Part shown: positions 378 to 59,711 of the stretch, one piece after another
Layout of the letters: every line of letters starts with the position of its first letter
How positions within the stretch are numbered: position 1 is the first letter of the stretch
NCBI RefSeq assembly: GCF_054482525.1
Contig: NZ_CM137006.1
Length of the DNA stretch: 64,000 nt
Reading direction: 5' to 3' (one strand)
Notes under the pieces: model-generated
Database searches by the model: none
Seen by the model: the letters and a program-made list of their open reading frames with translations, nothing else
What the model was told of the DNA's origin: nothing
Translations under genes and position numbers: made by a program

Positions 378-3266
378 ATGCCCCGCAGCACTTGGTTCAA
401 AGCATTATTGTTGTTTGTTGCCCTTTGGGCACCCTTAAGTCAGGCAGAAACGGGATGGCAGCCGATTCAGGAAACCATCCGTAAAAGTGATAAAGATAAC
501 CGCCAGTATCAGGCTATACGTCTGGATAACGGTATGGTGGTCTTGCTGGTTTCTGATCCGCAGGCGGTTAAATCGCTCTCGGCGCTGGTGGTGCCCGTTG
601 GGTCGCTGGAAGATCCTGAGGCGTACCAGGGGCTGGCACATTACCTTGAACATATGAGTCTGATGGGGTCGAAAAAGTACCCGCAGGCTGACAGTCTGGC
701 CGAATATCTCAAAATGCACGGCGGGAGTCACAATGCCAGCACGGCACCGTATCGCACGGCTTTCTATCTGGAAGTTGAGAACGACGCCTTGCCCGGTGCG
801 GTAGACCGCCTGGCGGACGCTATTGCAGAACCCTTGCTCGACAAGAAATACGCCGAACGTGAGCGTAATGCAGTGAATGCCGAATTAACCATGGCGCGTA
901 CGCGTGATGGGATGCGCATGGCACAGGTCAGTGCAGAAACCATTAACCCGGCACATCCCGGTTCAAAGTTTTCTGGTGGTAACCTCGAAACTTTAAGCGA
1001 CAAACCCGGAAATCCGGTGCAGCAGGCGCTGAAAGATTTTCACGAGAAATATTACTCTGCCAATCTGATGAAGGCGGTTATTTACAGCATTAAACCGTTG
1101 CCGGAGTTGGCAAAAATGGCGGCGGACACCTTTGGTCGCGTGCCGAACAAAGAGAGCAAAAAACCGGAAATCACCGTGCCGGTAGTCACCGACGCGCAAA
1201 AGGGCATTATCATTCATTACGTCCCGGCGCTGCCGCGTAAAGTTCTGCGCGTTGAGTTTCGCATCGATAACAATTCAGCGAAGTTCCGTAGTAAAACGGA
1301 TGAATTGATTACCTATCTGATCGGTAATCGCAGCCCAGGTACACTTTCTGACTGGCTGCAAAAGCAGGGATTAGTTGAGGGCATTAGCGCCAATTCCGAT
1401 CCTATCGTCAACGGCAACAGCGGCGTATTAGCGATCTCTGCGTCTTTAACCGATAAAGGTCTGGCGAATCGCGATCAGGTTGTGGCGGCCATTTTTAGCT
1501 ACCTCAATCTGTTACGCGAAAAAGGGATTGATAAACAATACTTCGATGAACTGGCGAATGTGCTGGATATCGACTTTCGTTATCCGTCAATCACCCGTGA
1601 TATGGATTACGTCGAATGGCTGGCAGATACCATGATTCGCGTTCCTGTTGAGCATACGCTGGATGCAGTCAATATTGCCGATCGGTACGACGCTAAAGCA
1701 GTAAAAGAACGCCTGGCGATGATGACGCCGCAGAATGCGCGTATCTGGTATATCAGCCCGAAAGAGCCGCACAACAAAACGGCTTACTTTGTCGATGCGC
1801 CGTATCAGGTCGATAAAATTAGCGCACAAACTTTCGCTGACTGGCAGAAAAAAGCCGCCGACATTGCGCTCTCTTTGCCAGAGCTTAACCCCTATATTCC
1901 TGACGATTTCTCGCTGATTAAGTCAGAGAAGAAATATGACCATCCAGAGCTTATTGTTGATGAGTCGAATCTGCGTGTGGTCTATGCGCCAAGCCGTTAT
2001 TTTTCCAGCGAACCCAAAGCTGATGTCAGCCTGATTTTGCGTAATCCGAAAGCCATGGATAGCGCCCGCAATCAGGTGATGTTTGCGCTCAATGATTATC
2101 TCGCAGGGCTGGCGCTTGATCAGTTAAGCAACCAGGCGTCGGTTGGTGGCATAAGTTTTTCCACCAACGCTAACAACGGCCTTATGGTTAATGCCAATGG
2201 TTACACCCAGCGCCTGCCGCAGCTGTTCCAGGCATTGCTCGAGGGGTACTTTAGCTATACCGCTACGGAAGATCAGCTTGAGCAGGCGAAGTCCTGGTAT
2301 AACCAGATGATGGATTCCGCAGAAAAGGGCAAAGCGTTCGAGCAGGCGATTATGCCCGCGCAGATGCTCTCGCAAGTGCCGTACTTCTCGCGAGATGAAC
2401 GGCGCAAAATTTTGCCTTCAATCACTTTGAAAGAGGTGCTGGCCTATCGCGACGCCTTAAAATCAGGGGCTCGACCAGAGTTTATGGTTATTGGCAACAT
2501 GACCGAAGCCCAGGCAACAACGCTGGCACGCGATGTGCAAAAACAGTTGGGCGCTGATGGTTCGGAGTGGTGTCGTAACAAAGATGTCGTGGTCGATAAA
2601 AAACAATCTGTCATCTTTGAAAAAGCCGGTAACAGCACCGACTCCGCACTGGCAGCGGTATTTGTACCGACTGGCTACGATGAATACACCAGCTCAGCCT
2701 ATAGCTCTCTGTTGGGGCAGATCGTACAGCCGTGGTTCTACAATCAGTTGCGTACCGAAGAACAGTTGGGCTATGCCGTGTTTGCGTTTCCAATGAGCGT
2801 GGGGCGTCAGTGGGGCATGGGCTTCCTGTTGCAAAGCAATGATAAACAGCCTTCATTCTTGTGGGAGCGTTACAAGGCGTTTTTCCCAACCGCAGAGGCA
2901 AAATTGCGGACGATGAAGCCAGAAGAGTTTGCGCAAATCCAGCAGGCGGTAATAACCCAGATGCTGCAGGCACCGCAAACGCTCGGCGAAGAAGCATCGA
3001 AGTTAAGTAAAGATTTCGATCGCGGCAATATGCGCTTCGATTCGCGTGATAAAATCGTGGCCCAGATAAAACTGCTGACGCCGCAAAAACTTGCTGATTT
3101 CTTCCATCAGGCGGTGGTCGAGCCGCAAGGCATGGCTATTCTGTCGCAGATTTCCGGCAGCCAGAACGGGAAAGCCGAATATGTGCATCCTGAAGGCTGG
3201 AAAGTGTGGGAGAACGTCAGCGCGTTGCAGCAAACAATGCCCCTGATGAGTGAAAAGAATGAGTGA
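378..3266 (+). CDS. ptrA: Protease III (pitrilysin), periplasmic zinc metalloprotease
   Basis: 962 aa ORF; N-terminal signal peptide; HxxEH inverted zinc motif (HYLEH); position between recC and recB. Confidence 0.95.
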   Translation: MPRSTWFKALLLFVALWAPLSQAETGWQPIQETIRKSDKDNRQYQAIRLDNGMVVLLVSDPQAVKSLSALVVPVGSLEDPEAYQGLAHYLEHMSLMGSKKYPQADSLAEYLKMHGGSHNASTAPYRTAFYLEVENDALPGAVDRLADAIAEPLLDKKYAERERNAVNAELTMARTRDGMRMAQVSAETINPAHPGSKFSGGNLETLSDKPGNPVQQALKDFHEKYYSANLMKAVIYSIKPLPELAKMAADTFGRVPNKESKKPEITVPVVTDAQKGIIIHYVPALPRKVLRVEFRIDNNSAKFRSKTDELITYLIGNRSPGTLSDWLQKQGLVEGISANSDPIVNGNSGVLAISASLTDKGLANRDQVVAAIFSYLNLLREKGIDKQYFDELANVLDIDFRYPSITRDMDYVEWLADTMIRVPVEHTLDAVNIADRYDAKAVKERLAMMTPQNARIWYISPKEPHNKTAYFVDAPYQVDKISAQTFADWQKKAADIALSLPELNPYIPDDFSLIKSEKKYDHPELIVDESNLRVVYAPSRYFSSEPKADVSLILRNPKAMDSARNQVMFALNDYLAGLALDQLSNQASVGGISFSTNANNGLMVNANGYTQRLPQLFQALLEGYFSYTATEDQLEQAKSWYNQMMDSAEKGKAFEQAIMPAQMLSQVPYFSRDERRKILPSITLKEVLAYRDALKSGARPEFMVIGNMTEAQATTLARDVQKQLGADGSEWCRNKDVVVDKKQSVIFEKAGNSTDSALAAVFVPTGYDEYTSSAYSSLLGQIVQPWFYNQLRTEEQLGYAVFAFPMSVGRQWGMGFLLQSNDKQPSFLWERYKAFFPTAEAKLRTMKPEEFAQIQQAVITQMLQAPQTLGEEASKLSKDFDRGNMRFDSRDKIVAQIKLLTPQKLADFFHQAVVEPQGMAILSQISGSQNGKAEYVHPEGWKVWENVSALQQTMPLMSEKNE

Positions 3267-6200
3267 TGTCGCCGAGACATTAGATCCTTTGCGCTTGCCC
3301 TTACAGGGCGAGCGCCTGATTGAAGCCTCTGCCGGCACAGGCAAAACCTTTACGATTGCGGCGCTCTATTTGCGCCTGTTACTTGGACTAGGCGGTTCTG
3401 CCGCCTTTCCCCGCCCGCTGACCGTTGAAGAACTGCTGGTGGTCACCTTTACCGAGGCTGCCACGGCAGAATTGCGCGGTCGTATCCGTAGCAATATCCA
3501 CGAGTTGCGCATCGCCTGTCTGCGTGAAACCACCGACAATCCACTGTACGAACGCCTACTGGAAGAGATCGACGATAAAGCGCAAGCCGCGCAGTGGTTG
3601 TTGTTAGCCGAACGGCAGATGGATGAAGCGGCAGTCTTTACTATTCACGGTTTTTGCCAGCGCATGCTCAACCTGAATGCCTTTGAATCCGGCATGCTGT
3701 TTGAGCAGCAGCTGATTGAAGATGAGTCTCTGCTACGCTACCAGGCCTGCGCCGATTTCTGGCGTCGCTACTGCTACCCGCTGCCGCGTGAAATTGCCCA
3801 GGTCGTCTTTGAAACCTGGAAAGGACCGCAGGCGTTGCTGCGCGATATTAATCGTTATCTGCAAGGCGAAGCGCCGGTTATCAAAGCGCCGCCGCCCGAT
3901 GATGAAACGCTGGCTTCCCGCCACGCGCAAATTGTGGCGCGTATTGATACGGTAAAACAGCAGTGGCGCGACGCGGTGGGTGAACTGGATGCGCTGATCG
4001 AATCTTCTGGTATTGATCGACGCAAGTTTAACCGTAGCAATCAGGCTAAATGGATCGAGAAGATCAGCGCCTGGGCAGAAGAAGAGACCAACAGTTATCA
4101 GTTGCCAGAGTCGCTGGAAAAATTCTCTCAGCGTTTCTTAGAAGATCGCACGAAAGCCGGGGGGGAAACCCCGCGACATCCACTGTTTGAGGCGATCGAT
4201 CAACTGCTTGCAGAACCATTGTCGATCCGCGATCTGGTGATCACCCGCGCATTGGCTGAGATCCGCGAAACAGTAGCGCGTGAAAAACGCCGCCGTGGCG
4301 AATTGGGTTTTGATGACATGTTAAGTCGGCTCGATTCCGCGCTGCGTAGCGAAAGCGGCGAGGTGTTGGCAGCGGCGATCCGTACGCGATTCCCGGTGGC
4401 AATGATCGATGAATTTCAGGATACCGACCCCCAGCAGTACCGAATTTTTCGCCGTATCTGGCACCATCAGCCGGAAACCGCATTGTTGCTGATTGGCGAC
4501 CCGAAACAGGCCATTTATGCATTCCGGGGTGCGGATATCTTCACTTATATGAAGGCGCGTAGCGAAGTTCACGCCCACTACACTTTAGACACCAACTGGC
4601 GTTCCGCACCAGGAATGGTGAATAGTGTGAACAAGCTTTTCAGTCAGACTGATGACGCGTTCATGTTTCGCGAAATTCCTTTTATTCCAGTGAAATCAGC
4701 CGGGAAAAATCAGGCGTTACGTTTTGTCTTTAAAGGTGAAACGCAGCCTGCGATGAAAATGTGGCTGATGGAAGGCGAAAGCTGCGGCGTTGGCGACTAT
4801 CAAAGTACCATGGCGCAGGTATGTGCTGCGCAAATCCGCGACTGGCTACAAGCCGGACAGCGGGGCGAAGCGTTGCTGATGAACGGCGACGACGCGCGTC
4901 CGGTGCGTGCTTCGGACATCAGTGTGCTGGTGCGCAGCCGCCAGGAGGCCGCCCAGGTGCGCGACGCCTTAACGTTGCTGGAAATCCCTTCCGTTTACCT
5001 TTCGAACCGCGACAGTGTTTTTGAAACTCTGGAAGCGCAGGAAATGCTTTGGTTGTTGCAGGCGGTGATGACGCCCGAACGTGAGAACACCCTGCGTAGT
5101 GCGCTGGCAACGTCAATGATGGGGCTGAACGCGCTGGATATCGAAACGCTGAACAATGACGAACATGCGTGGGATGCGGTAGTCGAAGAGTTCGATGGTT
5201 ATCGGCAAATCTGGCGCAAACGTGGCGTTATGCCGATGCTGCGGGCGCTGATGTCGGCGCGTAACATTGCTGAAAACTTGCTGGCAACGGCAGGCGGTGA
5301 GCGGCGTCTTACCGATATCTTGCATATCAGCGAACTGCTACAAGAAGCCGGAACGCAGCTGGAAAGTGAACATGCGCTGGTACGCTGGTTATCGCAACAT
5401 ATCCTCGAGCCAGACAGTAATGCCTCCAGCCAACAAATGCGCCTCGAAAGTGATAAACATCTGGTGCAGATTGTCACGATCCATAAATCAAAAGGGCTGG
5501 AATATCCGCTGGTCTGGTTGCCATTTATTACCAATTTCCGCGTCCAGGATCAGGCGTTCTATCACGATCGCCACTCGTTTGAGGCTGTTCTGGATCTTAA
5601 TGCTGCGCCAGAAAGTGTCGATCTCGCGGAGGCCGAACGTCTGGCGGAAGATCTGCGTTTGCTTTACGTGGCGCTGACACGTTCGGTTTGGCATTGCAGT
5701 CTCGGCGTTGCACCGCTGGTGCGCCGTCGTGGCGATAAAAAAGGTGACACCGACGTCCACCAAAGTGCGCTCGGGCGTTTGCTGCAAAAAGGGGAACCGC
5801 AAGATGCGGCAGGGCTTCGCACCTGTATTGAAGCGTTATGCGATGATGATATTGCCTGGCAAACGGCACAAACGGGTGATAACCAGCCCTGGCAGGTTAA
5901 TGATGCTTTAACTGCAGAACTGAATGCGAGGACGCTACAACGATTGCCCGGCGATAACTGGCGTGTCACCAGCTACTCCGGTTTGCAGCAGCGTGGTCAC
6001 GGTATCGCTCAGGATCTGATGCCACGGCTGGATGTTGATGCCGCAGGCGTGGTCAGCGTCGTTGAAGAACCGACGTTAACACCGCATCAGTTCCCGCGCG
6101 GTGCGTCACCAGGGACATTCTTGCACAGTTTGTTTGAAGACCTCGATTTTACCCAGCCGGTTGACCCGAACTGGGTACAGGAAAAACTGGAACTCGGCGG

Positions 6201-18999: not shown

Positions 19000-19731
19000 T
19001 CAGGCTGTTACCAAAGAAGTTGCAACCTGGCGCTCATCAGAAATAATGTGCGTTACCTCATCCAGATGCCCGATGCGGGCTTCCCCTGAACGATTAAATT
19101 TACTTTTATCAATCAATAACAACGATTGCGCGGCGCGTTTTAATAGCATTGATTTGTAATCAGCGTTGATGGCATTGGAGTCCCACAGTGCGCCGCTGCT
19201 ATCGATCCCTTCACAAGAAAAAATAAACAGATCGATTTCCAGCGATTTAAGTTGGGAAATCAGCGAGGGATTGACGTAACAGCCATATTTGCGCTCAAGT
19301 GTGCCACCGGAACTGATCAGTTGAATGCGTTCGCGTTTACCGAGTTCATGGCAAATCGGATGGCTATTGGTGAAGACCTGAATGTTGATGTCAGGCAACT
19401 GGCGTGCCAGATACCAGCAAGTTGAACTGGCGTCTAAGGCTATCACCATCCCTTCTTCAATCCACGCGAGCGCCTCGCGCGCGATATCTGCTTTATGCGC
19501 ATAATGGCTTTTCAGCCGGATGTGAAAGGGATCGCCACTGTCTTGATTTTGACGGTGGATATATTTAGCGCGTCCATGATTGCGCAGAATTTTACCCTGC
19601 GTCTGTAATTCATTGAGATCGCGACGAATGGTTTCTTTACTGACCTTTAGCTGTTCAGAGAGAGCTTCCGTGGTCAGGCTGGTATGGTTCAGCAGCAGGT
19701 CGACTATCGCTTGCTGGCGTGCCGCTTTCAT
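19000..19731 (-). CDS. fucR: DeoR-family L-fucose operon activator
   Basis: 243 aa from ATG at 19731; N-terminal HTH (DeoR); last gene of fuc cluster. Confidence 0.9.
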   Translation of the reverse strand: MKAARQQAIVDLLLNHTSLTTEALSEQLKVSKETIRRDLNELQTQGKILRNHGRAKYIHRQNQDSGDPFHIRLKSHYAHKADIAREALAWIEEGMVIALDASSTCWYLARQLPDINIQVFTNSHPICHELGKRERIQLISSGGTLERKYGCYVNPSLISQLKSLEIDLFIFSCEGIDSSGALWDSNAINADYKSMLLKRAAQSLLLIDKSKFNRSGEARIGHLDEVTHIISDERQVATSLVTA

Positions 19732-23547: not shown

Positions 23548-24864
23548 TCAGTTAGTTGCCGTTTGAGAACGGAAACGGGCAAAGATAAAGATGACTGCGA
23601 AGCAGAGTGCCGGGATCAGTTCGGCAGTGGGGATGTTGCCCGCTGCGTCACTGACAAACCCCATGACCGGAGTGACAATACCGCCGCCAATAATGGTCAT
23701 AACGATGAAGGACGAACCGTATTTGGTGTCCTGGCCGAGATTTTTAATGCCCAGCGAGAAGATTGTTGGGTACTGAATCGACATAAAGGCACTGCATAAA
23801 GTCAGGGCTATTAAGCCCACATGACCGCCAGCGAAGGCTGAGATCAGGCACAGTGCCATAGCGATTAATGCGTAGGCGGCCAGGACTTTGTGTGGTGCGA
23901 AGCGACTGATGAGCCAGGTACCGGTGAAACGACCAATAAAGAAGCACACCATGGTTCCGGTTAAATAGTTAGCGGCAAAGCCTGCAGTCATACCTGGAAT
24001 TTCTTCTACAGCGTAGCGAATCAAATAGCTCCAGCAGGCCGTTTGTGCGCCGACATAGCAGAATTGCGCTAATACCGCCCAGCGCCAGTGACGAATACGC
24101 GCCAGACGAGAAAGCGATGCGGAGAACGATCCTTGTTTGGCGTCACTGTGATTATCACTCTGCAATGCCGGGAATTTCGTCAGCATGATCAGCAGGGCGA
24201 CCAGTAACACGATAGCCACGATGATCATATAAGGTGTCTGTACCGATAATACCAGGCTGTGTTTATACGCACTCAATTGCTCTGGAGACATTTTATCGAG
24301 AACGTCTTGCGATTGATGTGGCACGTTAGACAAAATAAGACTTTGCCCAAAGACAACCGCGATAATTGCGCCAAATGAGTTAAATGTTTGCGCAAGATTT
24401 AAGCGGAAGTGACCACTGCTTTCCGGCCCTAATACCGTAACAAAAGGGTTTGCGGCAGTTTCCAGACAACCTAATCCAGCTGCAATAATAAATAGGCCAA
24501 CTAAAAATAAGGTGTAGTTCATTATTTCTGCAGCGGGCCAGAATAATGCAGCGCCCAAGGCATATAAAAATAATCCGGTAATAATCCCTGCTTTATAACT
24601 GAGTTTTTTCATCAATATCCCAGCAGGGATTGGGATAATGAAATAACCAAAGTAAAAGGCCGATTGGATCAGGCCAGCCTGGAAATTTGTCAGCGTAAAA
24701 GCCTGCTGGAATTGAGGTAATAAAATGTCGTTAAGGTTATTGGCTACCGCCCAAAGAAAAAACAGTGAGCACAGCAGCGCGAATGGAATAATGTAACTTC
24801 TGCTTTGCCCTGCATCTTTATCTACCGCACGGTAACTCTGCGTTTGTATTGATGTGTTTCCCAT
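23548..24864 (-). CDS. fucP: L-fucose:H+ symporter (MFS)
   Basis: 438 aa, 12 TM helices; first gene of fucPIKUR. Confidence 0.95.
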   Translation of the reverse strand: MGNTSIQTQSYRAVDKDAGQSRSYIIPFALLCSLFFLWAVANNLNDILLPQFQQAFTLTNFQAGLIQSAFYFGYFIIPIPAGILMKKLSYKAGIITGLFLYALGAALFWPAAEIMNYTLFLVGLFIIAAGLGCLETAANPFVTVLGPESSGHFRLNLAQTFNSFGAIIAVVFGQSLILSNVPHQSQDVLDKMSPEQLSAYKHSLVLSVQTPYMIIVAIVLLVALLIMLTKFPALQSDNHSDAKQGSFSASLSRLARIRHWRWAVLAQFCYVGAQTACWSYLIRYAVEEIPGMTAGFAANYLTGTMVCFFIGRFTGTWLISRFAPHKVLAAYALIAMALCLISAFAGGHVGLIALTLCSAFMSIQYPTIFSLGIKNLGQDTKYGSSFIVMTIIGGGIVTPVMGFVSDAAGNIPTAELIPALCFAVIFIFARFRSQTATN

Positions 24865-25052
24865 AGCATCCTCTTAGGTTCAGAAGCTTAAGCACGTAAT
24901 CGGTTATGTTTTCAAAAGTGCAAAACCAGCGAGTTCGGGCTTCATATCAGTGAATATTTGCCTGTCAGAAATGAACTCATGGATTCATTTTCAAATAAAA
25001 AACGCTCTGTAATATGACGGCGGTCACACTTATTAGCTGGGAGGTGACTTTA

Positions 25053-25068
25053 TGTGACTACCATCACT
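25053..25068. promoter_or_regulatory. CRP-like site in fucPIKUR/fucAO divergent control region
   Basis: TGTGActaccaTCACt (TGTGA-N6-TCAC). Confidence 0.4.
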
Positions 25069-25410
25069 TTAATAATCGAAATTTCATGCCCGTTTCAGAA
25101 AATAAATCATAAAAAACACAAACCCGATGACCGTATTAATTGTTTGTGCCGAAAACGGGCATTTCTGGCGAGGGGGAATGGAAAAATGACCGTTTTGATA
25201 AATATTTTTAAGAGCGGTCATTTTTAATAGGGTTATAAAAAGAGAACTTGCAGTTATTTACTGTGATTAGTTGAACCAGGTCACAAAATATAAGCTTGTG
25301 AATTTCTTTCTGGTTAATCAGGAAGAAGATGGTGGGTAATTAAACGGCTAATTCAATAGTGTGAAAGGAACAACATTATTGCCCTGTTTTGAATCAGAGA
25401 GAGGTAGCTA

Positions 25411-26058
25411 ATGGAACGAAATAAACTTGCTCGTCAGATTATTGACACTTGCCTGGAAATGACCCGCCTGGGACTGAACCAGGGGACAGCGGGTAACGTC
25501 AGTGTACGTTATCAGGATGGGATGCTGATTACGCCTACAGGTATTCCATATGAAAAACTGACGGAGTCGCATATTGTCTTTATTGATGGCAACGGTAAAC
25601 ATGAGGAAGGAAAGCTCCCCTCAAGCGAATGGCGTTTCCATATGGCGGCCTATCAAAGCAGACCGGATGCCAACGCGGTTGTTCACAATCATGCCGTTCA
25701 TTGCACAGCAGTTTCCATTCTTAACCGACCGATCCCCGCTATTCACTACATGATTGCGGCGGCTGGCGGTAATTCTATTCCTTGCGCGCCTTATGCGACC
25801 TTTGGAACACGCGAACTTTCTGAACATGTTGCGCTGGCTCTCAAAAATCGTAAGGCAACTTTGTTACAACATCATGGGCTTATCGCTTGTGAGGTGAATC
25901 TGGAAAAAGCGTTATGGCTGGCGCATGAAGTTGAAGTGCTGGCGCAACTTTACCTGACGACCCTGGCGATTACGGACCCGGTGCCAGTGCTGAGCGATGA
26001 AGAGATTGCCGTAGTGCTGGAGAAATTCAAAACCTACGGGTTACGGATTGAAGAGTAA
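25411..26058 (+). CDS. fucA: L-fuculose-1-phosphate aldolase (class II)
   Basis: 215 aa; sequence recognised. Confidence 0.95.
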   Translation: MERNKLARQIIDTCLEMTRLGLNQGTAGNVSVRYQDGMLITPTGIPYEKLTESHIVFIDGNGKHEEGKLPSSEWRFHMAAYQSRPDANAVVHNHAVHCTAVSILNRPIPAIHYMIAAAGGNSIPCAPYATFGTRELSEHVALALKNRKATLLQHHGLIACEVNLEKALWLAHEVEVLAQLYLTTLAITDPVPVLSDEEIAVVLEKFKTYGLRIEE

Positions 26059-33866: not shown

Positions 33867-34412
33867 GTGGACGATTTGACCGCACAAGCCCTGAAAGATT
33901 TTACTGCACGCTACTGCGATGCGTGGCATGAAGAGCATAAAAGCTGGCCGTTAAGTGAGGAACTGTACGGCGTTCCTTCACCGTGCATTATTTCAACCAC
34001 CGAAGATGCCGTATACTGGCAACCCCAGCCGTTTACCGGGGAACAAAATGTAAACGCGGTTGAACGCGCTTTTGATATTGTGATACAACCCACAATTCAT
34101 ACCTTTTATACGACTCAGTTTGCCGGGGATATGCATGCGCAGTTTGGCGATATCAAACTGACATTGCTACAAACCTGGAGTGAAGACGACTTCCGTCGGG
34201 TGCAGGAAAATCTGATTGGTCATCTGGTGACTCAGAAAAGGCTAAAATTGCCGCCCACGCTATTTATCGCGACGCTGGAAGAAGAGTTAGAGGTCATCTC
34301 GGTGTGTAATCTCTCCGGTGAAGTGTGTAAAGAGACGCTGGGAACACGTAAACGGGCGCATTTAGCCTCAAATCTTGCGGAATTCCTTAATCAACTTAAG
34401 CCTCTTCTGTAA
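33867..34412 (+). CDS. syd: SecY-interacting protein Syd
   Basis: 181 aa; sequence and position. Confidence 0.9.
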
Positions 34413-55805: not shown

Positions 55806-57083
55806 TTACTTGCTGCTAGCCATAGCAGGGGCGCTATCAGCAGTACGAATTTTTTGGAACAGCAAAAAGGTAAAGACGATCACCATGGCAAGCGCCGCCA
55901 TGCCCATCAGCCACATATTGCGGTAGGCTTCTGCTGCGGGCAGGGTGTCTTGCCAGTGGCCGATAATTGGGTAAACGAAGACATCCGGCAGGAATCCAAT
56001 CACCGAACAAATACCTACCGTGGTGCCCATAATGTAAGACGGTGTTCTCGCTTCGCCAGGGCAGGCCCAGTACAGCCCGCGTGAGGCGTAACAGGTGAAT
56101 CCCAGAAGTAAAATCAGACCAATCCCCATCGCGACCGATTGCGGGTTAGAGTTCGTGATGAGCAGGGCAGTTAACGCCAGCAGGCCGAGTACGGAAAGGA
56201 TTTGGATCACGCGGGTAGGGGATTTCACTTTGCTGTAAGTGGTGATAATGCCGCCAAGCGGACCGCACAGTGCGCGGAAGATTTTGTTGATCACAATCCC
56301 CATGTAGCTCGCCGCCACCAGCGACATACCGTACATTTCGGTCAGATAGTTGGTGGAGTAACTCAGAATGGCGTAGATGGTGAAGACACCAAAAATCACC
56401 ATGCTGCAATACCAGGTGGTGCTGATGCGCAAAACGGCCAGGATGTCGCTAAGCTGGAATGACTGTTTTTCTTCGTTATTGGTATTGCGTAGGTTGTTGT
56501 TATCGCTAACAAAAAACCAACACAAAATGCCCAGCAGAATGTAAACCACACTGTAGATGATAATGACCGTTTTCAGGCTGGCGCTGTCATCCGGTGCAAA
56601 GCGAGAAAAGACCCACATGGTAAACACCGCCAGCGACATTACACCGACGCCGCGCAGCCCTTCCATCCAGCCCATAATTTTCCCTTGCTCGCTATGATCG
56701 CCCAGCAACGATGCGGCTTTAATCGACACCGACCACAGCATTAAAATCGTCGTTATCGCAAAGGCGACCTGAATACAGAGCATTACCCACAGCGGTGGAT
56801 ATGTTGCCATTAACAGACCCAGTAATCCGGTAATGATCATCGCGGAAGTAATCATTTTGCGGTGTGAAAATTTATCGGCAATAACGCCGCTGGGGGCATA
56901 AAGAATAATAGCCGCAATACCAAAGGTACTCATTATTAAACCTATCTCGGTATTGCTGAATCCCATAAATTTTGCCATGGGAATTTGATAAATATAACGT
57001 AAATAAGCCAGGTCGAAACTAACGCCGCCGCTAAAACTAATTATCGCGAGGGTTATCCAACGGCGATATGAGTTGTGTTGCAT
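55806..57083 (-). CDS. yqcE: MFS transporter
   Basis: 425 aa; 12 TM; first gene of yqcE-ygcE. Confidence 0.88.
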   Translation of the reverse strand: MQHNSYRRWITLAIISFSGGVSFDLAYLRYIYQIPMAKFMGFSNTEIGLIMSTFGIAAIILYAPSGVIADKFSHRKMITSAMIITGLLGLLMATYPPLWVMLCIQVAFAITTILMLWSVSIKAASLLGDHSEQGKIMGWMEGLRGVGVMSLAVFTMWVFSRFAPDDSASLKTVIIIYSVVYILLGILCWFFVSDNNNLRNTNNEEKQSFQLSDILAVLRISTTWYCSMVIFGVFTIYAILSYSTNYLTEMYGMSLVAASYMGIVINKIFRALCGPLGGIITTYSKVKSPTRVIQILSVLGLLALTALLITNSNPQSVAMGIGLILLLGFTCYASRGLYWACPGEARTPSYIMGTTVGICSVIGFLPDVFVYPIIGHWQDTLPAAEAYRNMWLMGMAALAMVIVFTFLLFQKIRTADSAPAMASSK

Positions 57084-57155: not shown

Positions 57156-57204
57156 AGGTCTCTAGTAATTGCAATAAGAAATAACATGGAAAGCAGAGGT
57201 GTTG

Positions 57205-57220
57205 TGTGAGAGTAATCACG
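57205..57220. promoter_or_regulatory. CRP-like site, yqcE-proximal
   Basis: TGTGAgagtaaTCACg. Confidence 0.5.
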
Positions 57221-57261
57221 CTTCTGCTTTTTAAAATTATTTGACAATTCGAATATCACAC

Positions 57262-57277
57262 TGTGATTACGATCACA
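57262..57277. promoter_or_regulatory. CRP consensus site, ygcW-proximal
   Basis: TGTGAttacgaTCACA: both half-sites perfect with 6-bp spacer. Confidence 0.6.
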
Positions 57278-57331
57278 TTAGCGATTATGCCCTTATGATA
57301 AAAATTATCTCCAGTTACCAGAGATAATGAG

Positions 57332-58256: not shown

Positions 58257-59711
58257 ATGTCTTTATCTCGCGCAGCGATTGTCGACCAGCTAAAGGAAAT
58301 TGTTGGTGCAGATCGCGTAATTACCGATGAAACAGTATTAAAGAAAAACAGTATTGACCGTTTTCGTAAATTTCCGGATATTCATGGTATTTATACTTTG
58401 CCGATTCCGGCAGCGGTCGTAAAACTCGGTTCCACAGAACAAGTCTCCCGTGTGCTGAATTTTATGAATGCGCACAAAATTAACGGTGTGCCGCGTACCG
58501 GCGCTTCCGCCACTGAAGGTGGGCTGGAAACCGTTGTGGAAAACTCGGTGGTGCTCGACGGCTCCGCCATGAATCAAATCATTAATATTGATATTGAGAA
58601 TATGCAGGCCACGGCGCAATGTGGCGTTCCGCTGGAAGTGCTGGAAAACGCGTTGCGTGAAAAAGGTTACACCACGGGGCATTCTCCGCAGTCAAAGCCG
58701 CTGGCGCAGATGGGCGGCCTGGTAGCAACCCGCAGTATCGGGCAGTTCTCCACACTCTACGGCGCAATCGAAGATATGGTCGTTGGTCTGGAAGCAGTAT
58801 TGGCTGATGGCACCGTGACACGCATTAAAAACGTGCCACGTCGCGCGGCTGGCCCGGACATTCGTCACATCATCATCGGCAACGAAGGTGCATTGTGCTA
58901 TATCACTGAAGTAACAGTGAAAATCTTTAAATTCACCCCAGAAAACAACCTCTTCTACGGCTATATCCTGGAAGACATGAAAACCGGCTTCAACATCCTG
59001 CGTGAAATCATGGTGGAAGGGTATCGTCCGTCGATCGCTCGTTTGTATGACGCTGAAGATGGCACCCAACACTTCACCCATTTTGCCGATGGTAAATGTG
59101 TGCTGATCTTTATGGCTGAAGGTAACCCTCGCATTGCGAAGGCGACAGGCGAAGGGATTGCTGAAATCGTGGCACGTTACCCGCAATGCCAGCGAGTGGA
59201 CAGCAAGCTGATCGAAACCTGGTTTAATCACCTGAACTGGGGGCCGGATAAAGTGGCCGCTGAACGTGTGCAGATCCTCAAAACCGGCAACATGGGCTTT
59301 ACCACCGAAGTGTCCGGCTGCTGGAGCTGCATCCACGAAATCTACGAAAGCGTTATTAACCGTATTCGTACCGAGTTCCCGCACGCCGACGACATCACCA
59401 TGCTGGGCGGTCACTCCTCTCACAGCTACCAGAACGGCACCAACATGTACTTCGTTTACGACTACAACGTTGTTGACTGTAAGCCGGAAGAGGAAATCGA
59501 CAAGTACCACAATCCGCTCAACAAAATCATCTGCGAAGAAACCATTCGCCTCGGCGGTTCGATGGTGCACCACCACGGTATTGGTAAACATCGCGTTCAC
59601 TGGAGCAAACTGGAACACGGCAGCGCGTGGACGTTGCTGGAAGGTCTGAAAAAACAGTTCGATCCTAACGGCATTATGAATACGGGTACTATCTATCCGA
59701 TTGAAAAATAA
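58257..59711 (+). CDS. ygcU: FAD-linked oxidase (GlcD / alkyl-DHAP-synthase-like)
   Basis: 484 aa; FAD-binding PCMH-type domain. Confidence 0.88.
   Translation: MSLSRAAIVDQLKEIVGADRVITDETVLKKNSIDRFRKFPDIHGIYTLPIPAAVVKLGSTEQVSRVLNFMNAHKINGVPRTGASATEGGLETVVENSVVLDGSAMNQIINIDIENMQATAQCGVPLEVLENALREKGYTTGHSPQSKPLAQMGGLVATRSIGQFSTLYGAIEDMVVGLEAVLADGTVTRIKNVPRRAAGPDIRHIIIGNEGALCYITEVTVKIFKFTPENNLFYGYILEDMKTGFNILREIMVEGYRPSIARLYDAEDGTQHFTHFADGKCVLIFMAEGNPRIAKATGEGIAEIVARYPQCQRVDSKLIETWFNHLNWGPDKVAAERVQILKTGNMGFTTEVSGCWSCIHEIYESVINRIRTEFPHADDITMLGGHSSHSYQNGTNMYFVYDYNVVDCKPEEEIDKYHNPLNKIICEETIRLGGSMVHHHGIGKHRVHWSKLEHGSAWTLLEGLKKQFDPNGIMNTGTIYPIEK

What the first reader, a model, noticed from the sequence alone, without database searches (positions are those of the whole stretch)
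24865..25410. fucPIKUR / fucAO divergent control region
The 546-bp AT-rich region has a CRP-like site (25053-25068) and a TGTGA...TCACA pair with an atypical 14-bp spacing (25262-25285). The latter is not a standard CRP site and could be a FucR operator or a coincidence. FucR binding sites are not recognisable to me by eye.
Basis: partly seen in the sequence, partly recalled or inferred. Interest (0 to 1): 0.25.

Follow-up and report, generated by a model that had tools for sequence, protein, structure and literature searches.

The report
Known E. coli fucose-regulon control region

Summary
Window 24865-25410 is the 546-bp fucP/fucA intergenic region of E. coli, 100% identical to strain PCN033 and differing from K-12 at 15 positions.

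- **25053-25068** is the published CRP site OCrp1. It scores 14.0 bits and both half-sites are kept in 47/47 orthologous regions from Escherichia to Photorhabdus.
- **25262-25285** is not a unit.
  - Its TCACA (25281-85) is the right half of the published, mutationally validated CRP site OCrp2 (25267-25288). The true partner is gtTGA at the normal 6-bp spacing (15.2 bits; 46-47/47 conserved).
  - Its TGTGA (25262-66) is kept in only 2/47 orthologues. The mutant that abolished PfucAO left it untouched. It fits neither the CRP PWM (-0.6 bits) nor the FucR PWM.
- **FucR operators** are five conserved AAACGGkCAT boxes at 25081-25226. Two of them are the published OFucR2 and OFucR3.

My only additions are comparative. 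Site spacings are rigid within a fucP-side module and a fucA-side module, and the two are joined by a variable hinge. A conserved -10-like hexamer also sits 11 bp upstream of the published one.

Verdict: real feature, already known, low interest.

The parts
23548..24864 (-). fucP coding sequence (L-fucose:H+ symporter), first gene of fucPIKUR
   Evidence: ORF list; RefSeq annotation of identical DNA
24920..24930 (-). Predicted SrsR box gCtGgTTTTGC in the fucP 5' leader. Zhang et al. found no effect of SrsR on fucAO.
   Evidence: Sequence from the gSELEX table of PMC9181523, mapped onto; PMC11011485
24979..24979 (-). Inferred fucPIKUR transcription start (T on the minus strand). It would put OCrp0 at -41.5 and OCrp1 at -81.5.
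   Evidence: Inference only. It rests on the conserved block 24985-25002, the -10-like GAAAAT (reverse complement of 24987-24992, 31/47), and a figure legend that places a 'T' start inside the corresponding stretch.
25010..25031 (.). OCrp0, CRP site taaTaTGAcggcggTCACActt, proximal site of the fucPIKUR promoter. It is also the site that activates the IS5 fusion promoter in K-12.
   Evidence: PMC11894529; PWM 16.0 bits, rank 2 in the window; TCACA 47/47 and TATGA 38/47
25037..25040 (.). Position of the K-12 IS5 target CTAG. Here it reads CTGG.
   Evidence: Alignments; PMC11894529
25050..25071 (.). OCrp1, CRP site ttaTGTGActaccaTCACTtta.
   Evidence: 14.0 bits; 47/47; PMC11894529 and PMC11011485
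25081..25099 (-). FucR-type box B1 (tctgAAACGGGCATgaaat), untested. Presumably one of the 'putative OR0/OR1'.
   Evidence: PWM 15.3 bits; core kept in 41/47; always 28.5 bp from OCrp1
25110..25120 (+). Unexplained conserved element TAAAAaaCACA (TAAAAcCCACAg in most genera), 29 bp from B1
   Evidence: A canonical CGGTCAT box sits at this position only in Photorhabdus.
25122..25140 (-). FucR-type box B2 (attaatACGGTCATcgggt), untested
   Evidence: PWM 13.3 bits; 46/47; 29 bp from B3 in 33/34 taxa
25149..25167 (+). FucR box B3 = published OFucR2 (CCGAAAACGGGCATT; K-12 has CGGTCAT)
   Evidence: PMC11011485: mutation gives about 30% loss. PWM 18.2 bits; 46/47; SNP seen
25181..25199 (-). FucR-type box B4 (atcAAAACGGTCATttttc). 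It is the best-scoring box and forms an inverted pair with B5. The published work does not name it.
   Evidence: PWM 21.9 bits; 44/47; 29-30 bp from B5. Deletion V6 (from -206 = 25205) removes it with only about 30% loss.
25208..25226 (+). FucR box B5 = published OFucR3 (TTAAGAGCGGTCATT), essential for fucose induction of PfucAO
   Evidence: PMC11011485: more than 50-fold loss. PWM 16.6 bits; 35/47
25262..25266 (+).
   Evidence: 2/47 orthologues; -0.6 bits in the CRP register; left intact in the OCrp2 mutant that abolished promoter activity
25267..25288 (.). OCrp2, CRP site ttagtTGAaccaggTCACAaaa, essential for PfucAO.
   Evidence: PMC11011485: 14-fold and 350-fold loss. PWM 15.2 bits, rank 4; 46-47/47
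25325..25330 (+). Conserved -10-like hexamer GAAGAT (GATGAT in most genera): an alternative -10 for PfucAO
   Evidence: nAnnAT kept in 40/47; ungapped alignment from OCrp2. No experimental support.
25338..25348 (+). Published PfucAO -10 (aATtAa, 25338-43) and 5'RACE start C (25348, -63 from ATG)
   Evidence: PMC11011485, mapped
25357..25378 (.). OCrp3, CRP site tagTGTGAaaggaacaACAtta in the fucA leader. Accessory site (about 30% effect), specific to Escherichia.
   Evidence: PMC11011485; PWM 11.7 bits; 3-4/47
25411..26058 (+). fucA coding sequence (L-fuculose-phosphate aldolase), first gene of fucAO
19000..19731 (-). fucR, the DeoR-family activator that reads the boxes
   Evidence: ORF; Pfam HTH_DeoR 6.6e-23 and DeoRC 1.6e-45

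Best explanation
The interval is the divergent control region of the E. coli L-fucose regulon, a published system. It carries two activator-dependent sigma-70 promoters, four CRP sites and at least five FucR boxes.

- The first motif is OCrp1, the distal CRP site of the fucPIKUR promoter.
- The second 'pair' is not a functional unit. Its TCACA is the right half of OCrp2, which has the ordinary 6-bp spacer and a degenerate left half (gtTGA). Its TGTGA is a chance pentamer 3 bp upstream of that left half.

**Mechanism, steps shown in the literature**
- Fuculose-1-phosphate-activated FucR acts through OFucR3 (B5), with a minor contribution from OFucR2 (B3).
- CRP-cAMP at OCrp2 is indispensable both with and without inducer. 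FucR cannot activate without it.
- OCrp3 adds about 30%.
- OCrp0 is a functional CRP site.

**Mechanism, steps inferred here**
- OCrp2 acts as a class I site, at -70.5 from the 5'RACE start.
- The fucPIKUR promoter is a class II / tandem-CRP promoter, with OCrp0 at about -41.5 and OCrp1 at about -81.5.
- B1, B2 and B4 are further FucR boxes.
- FucR and CRP sites sit at fixed distances within each promoter's module. This fits stereospecific FucR-assisted CRP binding.
For: **Identity.** The DNA is 100% identical to E. coli PCN033, with fucP and fucA annotated on either side. It aligns to K-12 at 551/566 positions with no gaps.

**Published site sequences map exactly.**
- OCrp0: 25010-31
- OCrp2: 25267-88
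- OCrp3: 25357-78
- OFucR2: 25149-63
- OFucR3: 25208-22
- fucA transcription start: 25348

**Published function (PMC11011485).**
- The OCrp2 mutant ttagtctaaccaggcgctgaaa lost 14-fold (glycerol) and 350-fold (fucose) activity while leaving TGTGA 25262-66 intact.
- OFucR3 mutant: more than 50-fold loss.
- OFucR2 mutant: about 30% loss.
- OCrp3 mutant: about 30% loss.

**In vitro binding.** Genomic SELEX lists fucA and fucP among CRP targets (PMC3105977).

**CRP PWM.**
- The four sites score 16.0, 14.0, 15.2 and 11.7 bits, ranking 2, 6, 4 and 9 of about 64,000 window positions.
- Four sites of 10 bits or more never occurred in 5,000 shuffles of the region.

**Phylogenetic footprint in 47 fucP<>fucA regions.**
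- OCrp1 half-sites: 47/47.
- OCrp2 TGA / TCACA: 46/47 and 47/47.
- Mean identity is 0.92 inside CRP0-2 half-sites and FucR boxes, against 0.51 in the rest of the region.

**FucR boxes.** Five boxes score 13.3-21.9 bits in 25081-25226. They match the DAP-seq-derived consensus quoted. FucR is a DeoR-family protein.

**Spacings across 34 taxa.**

| Interval | Distance (bp) |
|---|---|
| OCrp0-OCrp1 | 39-40 |
| OCrp1-B1 | 28.5 in all |
| B1-B2 | 41-42 |
| B2-B3 | 29 |
| B3-B4 | 24-52 |
| B4-B5 | 29-30 |
| B5-OCrp2 | 58.5-59.5 |
Against: - OCrp1's function at the fucPIKUR promoter rests on papers I could not open (Podolny 1999, Zhang 2010). I have it only second-hand.
- The fucP transcription start and the class II geometry are inferred, not read from data.
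- The FucR PWM was trained on these same orthologous regions, so its scores here are partly circular.
- B4 is the best-scoring and a well-conserved box, yet deletion V6 removes it with only about 30% loss. Its role is therefore unknown, and my first idea that it is an essential partner of B5 is contradicted.
- The published -35 letters ('TTGtgA' at -96..-91) do not match the sequence at those coordinates, which reads TAATCA.
- The published -10 is less conserved than a hexamer 11 bp upstream. The exact position of OCrp2 relative to the start is therefore not secure.
Confidence: 0.92

Rival explanations
1. The TGTGA-N14-TCACA inverted repeat (25262-25285) is a genuine operator bound as a unit, by FucR or by another dimeric regulator with widely spaced half-sites.
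For: - It is an exact 5+5 inverted repeat, and the only one at this spacing in 64 kb (0.06 expected).
- It lies between the FucR boxes and the fucAO promoter.
- TGTGA pentamers are enriched in the region: 4 in 546 bp, against 52 in 64 kb.
Against: - The left arm is kept in only 2/47 orthologues. It varies even within Escherichia: TTTGA in a second E. coli lineage and CGTGA in E. albertii.
- With a free spacer the expectation is 1.9 pairs per window, and 4 are observed.
- No FucR-PWM hit of 8 bits or more falls there.
- The published OCrp2 mutant left the left arm intact, and the promoter still lost 14- to 350-fold activity.
- The right arm is fully explained by OCrp2.
Confidence: 0.03
2. The upstream TGTGA forms a second, overlapping CRP site (TGTGAttagttGAACC, centred 8 bp upstream of OCrp2). 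This would give Escherichia an auxiliary or alternative CRP register.
For: - The left half is a perfect match, the spacer to GAACC is 6 bp, and the site is present in K-12 and this strain.
- OCrp3 shows that Escherichia-specific accessory CRP sites do exist in this region.
Against: - The PWM score is -0.6 bits, rank 912, because the right half GAACC matches TCACA at only 2 of 5 positions.
- It is not conserved (2/47).
- It could not sustain any activity when OCrp2 was mutated.
Confidence: 0.04
3. The parts are the same but the fucAO promoter geometry differs. The functional -10 is the conserved hexamer GAAGAT/GATGAT (25325-30) and transcription starts near 25337-25339. OCrp2 then sits at the canonical class I position, -59.5 to -61.5. 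The 5'RACE end at 25348 would be a processed or secondary 5' end.
For: - nAnnAT is kept in 40/47 orthologues, against 6-16/47 for the published -10 registers.
- The distance from OCrp2 to the hexamer is ungapped in all Enterobacteriaceae and Yersinia.
- The RACE method used relies on template switching and does not select triphosphate ends (method named; the limitation is my own knowledge).
- The published -35 letters do not fit the stated coordinates.
Against: - A single clean 5'RACE end at 25348 was reported.
- -70.5 is also a workable class I position (own knowledge; for example malT).
- The stretch TTAATC-17 bp-TAATTA fits the published coordinates and is moderately conserved.
- The consensus promoter scan finds neither candidate.
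Confidence: 0.25

Closest known systems
The E. coli K-12 fucPIKUR/fucAO intergenic region as described by Zhang et al. 2024 (PMC11011485) and Zhou et al. 2025 (PMC11894529)
   Same: It is the same locus, also 546 bp. All four CRP sites, OFucR3, the -10 and the transcription start are identical in sequence.
   Different: - There are 15 substitutions.
- One lies in OFucR2 (CGGTCAT in K-12, CGGGCAT here, which is the commoner form among orthologues).
- Two change the IS5 target CTAG to CTGG.
- One lies in the spacer upstream of the published -35 position.
- The published description names two validated and two putative FucR operators. The comparative data show five conserved boxes.
Class I / class II / tandem-CRP (class III) CRP-dependent promoters (lac, galP1, and synthetic tandem-site promoters; own knowledge of the Busby-Ebright classification)
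   Same: The sites are 22 bp with a TGTGA-N6-TCACA core. OCrp2 lies upstream of the -35 region, as a class I site does. OCrp0 and OCrp1 are 40 bp apart, with the proximal site abutting the promoter, as in a class II plus upstream-site arrangement.
   Different: CRP alone gives only basal activity. A second, pathway-specific activator (FucR) bound further upstream is needed for induction.
The malEp/malKp divergent control region (MalT boxes plus several CRP sites forming one nucleoprotein complex; own knowledge)
   Same: It is also a long AT-rich divergent spacer with several CRP sites and several short asymmetric activator boxes at fixed spacings, and both promoters depend on the two proteins together.
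   Different: - The specific activator belongs to a different family (MalT against DeoR-type FucR).
- Here the two promoters' modules are joined by a hinge of variable length (24-52 bp).
- The fucA side works without the fucP side (deletion V5), so a single shared complex is not required.
DeoR-family operators (DeoR, GlpR, AgaR; own knowledge)
   Same: The regulator has HTH_DeoR and DeoRC domains. There are several operator copies spread over more than 100 bp, which suggests an oligomeric regulator.
   Different: - FucR is an activator, and its inducer switches binding on. Most DeoR-family proteins are repressors released by their inducer.
- The boxes are about 10-bp asymmetric elements arranged as inverted pairs 29 bp apart, not compact palindromes.

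Membership tests
   TGTGActaccaTCACT matches 9/10 with a 6-bp spacer.
   It scores 14.0 bits against a training range of 10.2-18.0, and ranks 6 of about 64,000 positions. The matrix was built from sites recalled from memory.
   TGTGA is kept in 47/47 and TCAC[T/C] in 47/47, and the spacer is variable.
   The evidence is second-hand. describe the site as important for fucPIK, citing Podolny 1999, which is not held. Genomic SELEX lists fucP and fucA as targets.
CRP-cAMP binding site (applied to the 14-bp-spaced pair 25262-25285) | 6-bp spacer between half-sites | tested here: not met
   The spacer is 14 bp. The 6-bp register from the same TGTGA scores -0.6 bits.
   gtTGA-N6-TCACA scores 15.2 bits, rank 4, and is kept in 46-47/47. 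Function comes from the literature: 14- to 350-fold loss on mutation.
FucR (DeoR-family) operator (applied to 25262-25285) | Match to the FucR box ...AAACGG[T/G]CAT... | tested here: not met
   No hit of 8 bits or more falls in 25240-25300. The nearest resemblance, ACTGTGAT against ACGGTCAT, is not conserved.
FucR (DeoR-family) operator (applied to boxes B1-B5, 25081-25226) | Match to the DAP-seq-derived FucR consensus quoted in PMC11011485 | tested here: met
   The five boxes score 13.3-21.9 bits. The consensus is ntnaAAaCGGtCAtttntn, against the published ..AAAACGGT(G)CAT(A)T.
FucR (DeoR-family) operator (applied to boxes B1-B5, 25081-25226) | Conserved wherever the fucP<>fucA arrangement occurs | tested here: met
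   Cores are kept in 41, 46, 46, 44 and 35 of 47 regions, and the spacings are fixed.
FucR (DeoR-family) operator (applied to boxes B1-B5, 25081-25226) | Mutation abolishes FucR-dependent induction, or FucR binds in vitro | tested here: inconclusive
   From the literature, the B5 mutant lost more than 50-fold and the B3 mutant about 30%. B4 is removed in deletion V6 with only about 30% loss. B1 and B2 are dispensable for PfucAO (V5) and have not been tested at PfucPIKUR.
FucR (DeoR-family) operator (applied to boxes B1-B5, 25081-25226) | Cognate regulator of the DeoR family encoded in the regulon | tested here: met
   fucR lies at 19000-19731 and has HTH_DeoR and DeoRC domains.

The most novel reading that the evidence does not exclude
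**Architecture.** The control region is built from two stereospecific FucR-CRP modules.
- fucP side: OCrp0-40-OCrp1-28.5-B1-41-B2-29-B3.
- fucA side: B4-29-B5-59-OCrp2.
- Each module has been held rigid from Escherichia to Yersinia. A hinge of free length (24-52 bp) joins them.

**Consequences, if true.**
- FucR boxes work as inverted pairs 29 bp apart.
- OFucR2 (B3) belongs structurally to the fucPIKUR module. This would explain its minor effect on PfucAO.
- Three conserved boxes remain untested: B1, B2 and the best-scoring B4. They would set the sensitivity of the regulon or drive fucPIKUR, rather than set maximal fucAO output.
Probability: 0.45. Interest if true: 0.3.

Novelty: already known. 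Interest (0 to 1): 0.12.

Why it matters
**For a genome scan, little.** This is a textbook sugar-regulon control region, and its CRP and FucR sites have been mapped and mutated (2024-2025 papers).

**What the check does.**
- It corrects one misreading. A 'non-standard 14-bp CRP-like palindrome' is a degenerate but ordinary CRP site plus a chance pentamer.
- It shows how quickly such questions are settled by aligning orthologous spacers.

**Two small leads for specialists.**
- Three conserved FucR-type boxes have never been tested, and site spacings are rigid within each promoter's module.
- The conserved hexamer disagrees with the published -10 of PfucAO. This affects which class of CRP activation applies.

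Tried and rejected
- **Papers not held.** Podolny 1999 (PMC94201), Zhang 2010 (PMC2838058), Chen 1989 (PMC210477), Zheng 2004 (PMC528793) and Tan 2001 (PMC311042) could not be opened. The original evidence for OCrp0/OCrp1 at the fucPIK promoter, the fucP transcription start and the first predictions of OCrp2/3 was therefore not read first-hand.
- **Literature searches.** Searches for FucR binding-site or DAP-seq literature found nothing beyond the two Saier-lab papers.
- **Promoter and terminator scan.** The consensus scan found nothing in 24800-25480. This fits activator-dependent promoters but gave no help on promoter geometry.
- **Rfam.** Rfam at E<=1 found no RNA family in 24700-25550.
- **First FucR matrix.** It was cut from alignment columns and was mis-registered: B1 was off by one and B4 was lost to gap columns. 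It was replaced by an iteratively refined matrix on unaligned sequences.
- **First CRP matrix.** Four training sites were typed out of register. This was corrected.
- **'B4 is the essential partner of B5 at PfucAO'.** Rejected. The published deletion V6 starts at -206 (25205), lacks B3 and B4, and keeps about 70% of induced activity.
- **'The conserved element at B1+29 is a FucR box'.** Not supported in Enterobacteriaceae, where it scores -20 to +2 bits. A canonical box sits there only in Photorhabdus.
- **Natural IS insertions.** At most 3 of 5,425 genomes have a split match. This was not pursued.
Full report
**1. What the interval is**

- ORFs flank the interval divergently: a 438-aa ORF on the minus strand ending at 24864, and 215-aa and 383-aa ORFs on the plus strand from 25411.
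- A 1.1-kb query across the interval is 100% identical to E. coli PCN033. It matches 5,425 of 5,426 complete E. coli genomes, with fucP and fucA annotated on either side.
- The 546-bp spacer aligns to K-12 MG1655 without gaps and with 15 substitutions.
- It is 36.8% G+C.

**2. Check of the two motifs**

- For the standard CRP core with at most 1 mismatch, the window has 6 matches against 1.85 expected.
- The 14-bp pair is unique at that exact spacing (0.06 expected).
- The spacing was chosen after the fact. Allowing any spacer from 0 to 30 bp, the window has 4 such pairs against 1.9 +/- 1.4 expected. On statistics alone the pair is unremarkable.

**3. What is published**

Two recent papers dissect this spacer in K-12: Zhang et al. 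2024 (PMC11011485) and Zhou et al. 2025 (PMC11894529). Their sites map onto the window as follows.

| Element | Published sequence or position | Window coordinates |
|---|---|---|
| OCrp0 | taaTaTGAcggcggTCACActt | 25010-25031 |
| IS5 target | CTAG at -374..-371 | 25037-25040 |
| OFucR2 | CCGAAAACGGTCATT | 25149-25163 |
| OFucR3 | TTAAGAGCGGTCATT | 25208-25222 |
| OCrp2 | ttagtTGAaccaggTCACAaaa | 25267-25288 |
| fucA 5'RACE start | C at -63 | 25348 |
| -10 | -73..-68 | 25338-25343 |
| OCrp3 | tagTGTGAaaggaacaACAtta | 25357-25378 |

Functional data:
- Mutating OCrp2 to ttagtctaaccaggcgctgaaa lowers PfucAO 14-fold in glycerol and 350-fold in fucose.
- The OCrp3 mutant loses about 30%.
- The OFucR2 mutant loses about 30%, in fucose only.
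- The OFucR3 mutant loses more than 50-fold, in fucose only.

Other published points:
- OCrp0 is essential for the IS5-generated fusion promoter.
- Genomic SELEX independently lists fucA and fucP as CRP targets (PMC3105977).
- The FucR operators of the fucPIKUR promoter (OR0, OR1) are described only as 'putative'.

**4.

CRP matrix:
- I built it from 17 classical CRP sites recalled from memory. All of them score 10.2-18.0 bits.
- It gives 16.0 (OCrp0), 14.0 (OCrp1), 15.2 (OCrp2) and 11.7 bits (OCrp3). These rank 2, 6, 4 and 9 among about 64,000 window positions.
- Four sites of 10 bits or more never occurred in 5,000 shuffles of the spacer.

FucR matrix:
- It was refined on the orthologous spacers. 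It is therefore partly circular for this window, which contributes one of 47 sequences.
- It finds five boxes here and nothing of 8 bits or more between 25240 and 25300.
- The boxes are B1 25081-99 (-) 15.3 bits, B2 25122-40 (-) 13.3, B3 25149-67 (+) 18.2, B4 25181-99 (-) 21.9 and B5 25208-26 (+) 16.6.
- B3 and B5 are the published OFucR2 and OFucR3.
- The consensus aAAaCGGtCAt matches the DAP-seq motif quoted.
- The regulator gene fucR (19000-19731, minus strand) encodes a DeoR-family protein.

**5. Phylogenetic footprint**

A genome scan with FucA returned 80 loci. Forty-six of them have a divergent fucP at 419-665 bp. They range from Escherichia, Salmonella, Citrobacter, Klebsiella, Raoultella, Kluyvera, Enterobacter and Kosakonia to Hafnia, Rahnella, Yersinia and Photorhabdus.

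In the 47-sequence alignment, mean identity to the window is 0.92 in the CRP0-2 half-sites and FucR boxes and 0.51 elsewhere.

| Element | Kept in |
|---|---|
| OCrp1 TGTGA | 47/47 |
| OCrp1 TCAC[T/C] | 47/47 |
| OCrp0 TCACA | 47/47 |
| OCrp2 nnTGA | 46/47 |
| OCrp2 TCACA | 47/47 |
| OCrp3 half-sites | 3-4/47 |
| Box cores B1-B5 | 41, 46, 46, 44, 35 of 47 |

- The spacers inside OCrp0 and OCrp1 drift freely.
- OCrp3 is Escherichia-specific, which fits its small effect.

This settles the second motif. The right arm is conserved because it is half of OCrp2. The left arm is not under constraint.

**6. Architecture (my inference)**

Spacings were measured in the 34 taxa that show the full pattern.

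| Interval | Distance (bp) |
|---|---|
| OCrp0-OCrp1 | 39-40 |
| OCrp1-B1 | 28.5 in all 34 |
| B1-B2 | 41-42 |
| B2-B3 | 29 (33/34) |
| B3-B4 | 24-52 |
| B4-B5 | 29-30 |
| B5-OCrp2 | 58.5-59.5 |
| OCrp2 to fucA ATG | variable |

- The spacer therefore looks like two rigid modules, one per promoter, joined by a hinge between B3 and B4.
- B2/B3 and B4/B5 are inverted pairs with 29 bp between core centres.
- Published deletions agree that the fucA side is autonomous. V5 (from -270 = 25141) lacks OCrp0, OCrp1, B1 and B2 and keeps full activity.
- The deletions also contradict my first idea that B4 is indispensable. V6 (from -206 = 25205) lacks B3 and B4 and loses only about 30%.
- B4's strong conservation is therefore unexplained by the available assays. 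It may matter at limiting FucR or for fucPIKUR.
- A further conserved element, TAAAAcCCACAg (25110-25120), lies exactly 29 bp from B1. A canonical CGGTCAT box sits there only in Photorhabdus. I leave it unexplained.

**7. Promoters**

fucP side:
- There is a conserved block at 24985-25002 containing GAAAAT on the fucP strand.
- The 2025 paper states that the fucP start is a 'T' inside the stretch corresponding to 24941-25040.
- It also reports that a Fuc+ suppressor is a 1-bp insertion at -146, which is position 25010 at the edge of OCrp0.
- Together these fit a start at 24979, with OCrp0 at -41.5 and OCrp1 at -81.5. This is inference. I could not open the primary papers.

fucA side:
- The published start (25348) puts OCrp2 at -70.5.
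- Two things do not fit. The published -35 letters 'TTGtgA' are not what lies at -96..-91, which reads TAATCA in both strains; TTGTGA is at -115..-110.
- The best-conserved -10-like hexamer is GAAGAT/GATGAT at 25325-30. There nAnnAT is kept in 40/47, against 6-16/47 for the published -10 registers. That hexamer would put OCrp2 near -60.5.
- I rate this alternative at about 0.25. It needs primary-end mapping.

**8. Mechanism**

Shown in the literature:
- CRP at OCrp2 is required for any PfucAO activity.
- FucR with its inducer acts through OFucR3, and slightly through OFucR2, and it cannot act without OCrp2.
- The authors propose that FucR helps CRP occupy its site.

Inferred here:
- The invariant FucR-CRP distances on both sides support a stereospecific contact or bend rather than a loose recruitment effect.
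- The fucPIKUR promoter uses the same logic, with two CRP sites and boxes B1-B3.

**9. Comparison and verdict**

- This is not a relative of a known system; it is the known system.
- It works like other CRP plus specific-activator sugar promoters. The closest analogue is the malE/malK divergent region.
- Its activator is unusual for the DeoR family, because the inducer switches binding on.
- Novelty: already known. Interest: low (0.12).
The second is a mis-parse of a normal CRP site, and the FucR suggestion is not supported.

Noticed in passing
window 25037-25040: The K-12 IS5 insertion hot spot CTAG, whose occupation creates the propanediol-positive fusion promoter, reads CTGG in this strain, in an O157:H7 strain and in strain A29. 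The K-12 adaptive route may not be available at the same position in most E. coli. A TTAG remains 4 bp upstream.
   Followed up: partly
window 24940-25140, compared with the E. coli genome collection: About 410 of 5,426 complete E. coli genomes have no match to the fucP-proximal half of the spacer. In the rows inspected (STEC316 and a strain B derivative) the 1.1-kb query hits only a fucA-like gene at 82-83% identity. Part of the species seems to lack the classical fuc locus.
   Followed up: partly
L082 (E. coli C311) 1880-3359: This strain has a deletion that removes fucP, part of fucI and the spacer up to the left edge of OCrp1. A fucI pseudogene is left next to an intact FucR-box/OCrp2/fucAO side.
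   Followed up: partly
window 25325-25343: The conserved -10-like hexamer GAAGAT/GATGAT (40/47 orthologues) lies 11 bp upstream of the published PfucAO -10. The published -35 letters (TTGtgA) do not match the sequence at the published coordinates, which reads TAATCA.
   Followed up: partly
window 25110-25120: A conserved element TAAAAaaCACA (TAAAAcCCACAg in most genera) lies between FucR boxes B1 and B2, exactly 29 bp from B1. It is not a FucR box by PWM except in Photorhabdus. Its function is unknown.
   Followed up: partly
window 25159: OFucR2 reads CGGGCAT here and in the other Escherichia representatives, but CGGTCAT in K-12. Both forms are common among orthologues.
   Followed up: yes
window 57202-57223 and 57259-57280: Two strong CRP-like sites lie 57 bp apart in the yqcE/ygcW/ygcU area. 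One has a perfect TGTGA-N6-TCACA core (16.1 bits, the best score in the window); the other scores 14.6 bits. Another strong site lies at 34076-34097 (15.6 bits).
   Followed up: no
window 56558-56576 and 58349-58367: FucR-matrix hits of 16.6 and 16.9 bits lie outside the fuc locus, in the yqcE-ygcU region. They are probably chance matches to a short motif. Their conservation was not checked.
   Followed up: no
loci L032-L039, L043-L045, L047, L049, L051-L053, L055-L064, L066-L068 and L071: Many Enterobacterales (Citrobacter, Atlantibacter, Buttiauxella, Enterobacter and others) carry a FucA homologue at 82-88% identity with no divergent fucP upstream. This is a second genomic context for the aldolase.
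   Followed up: no
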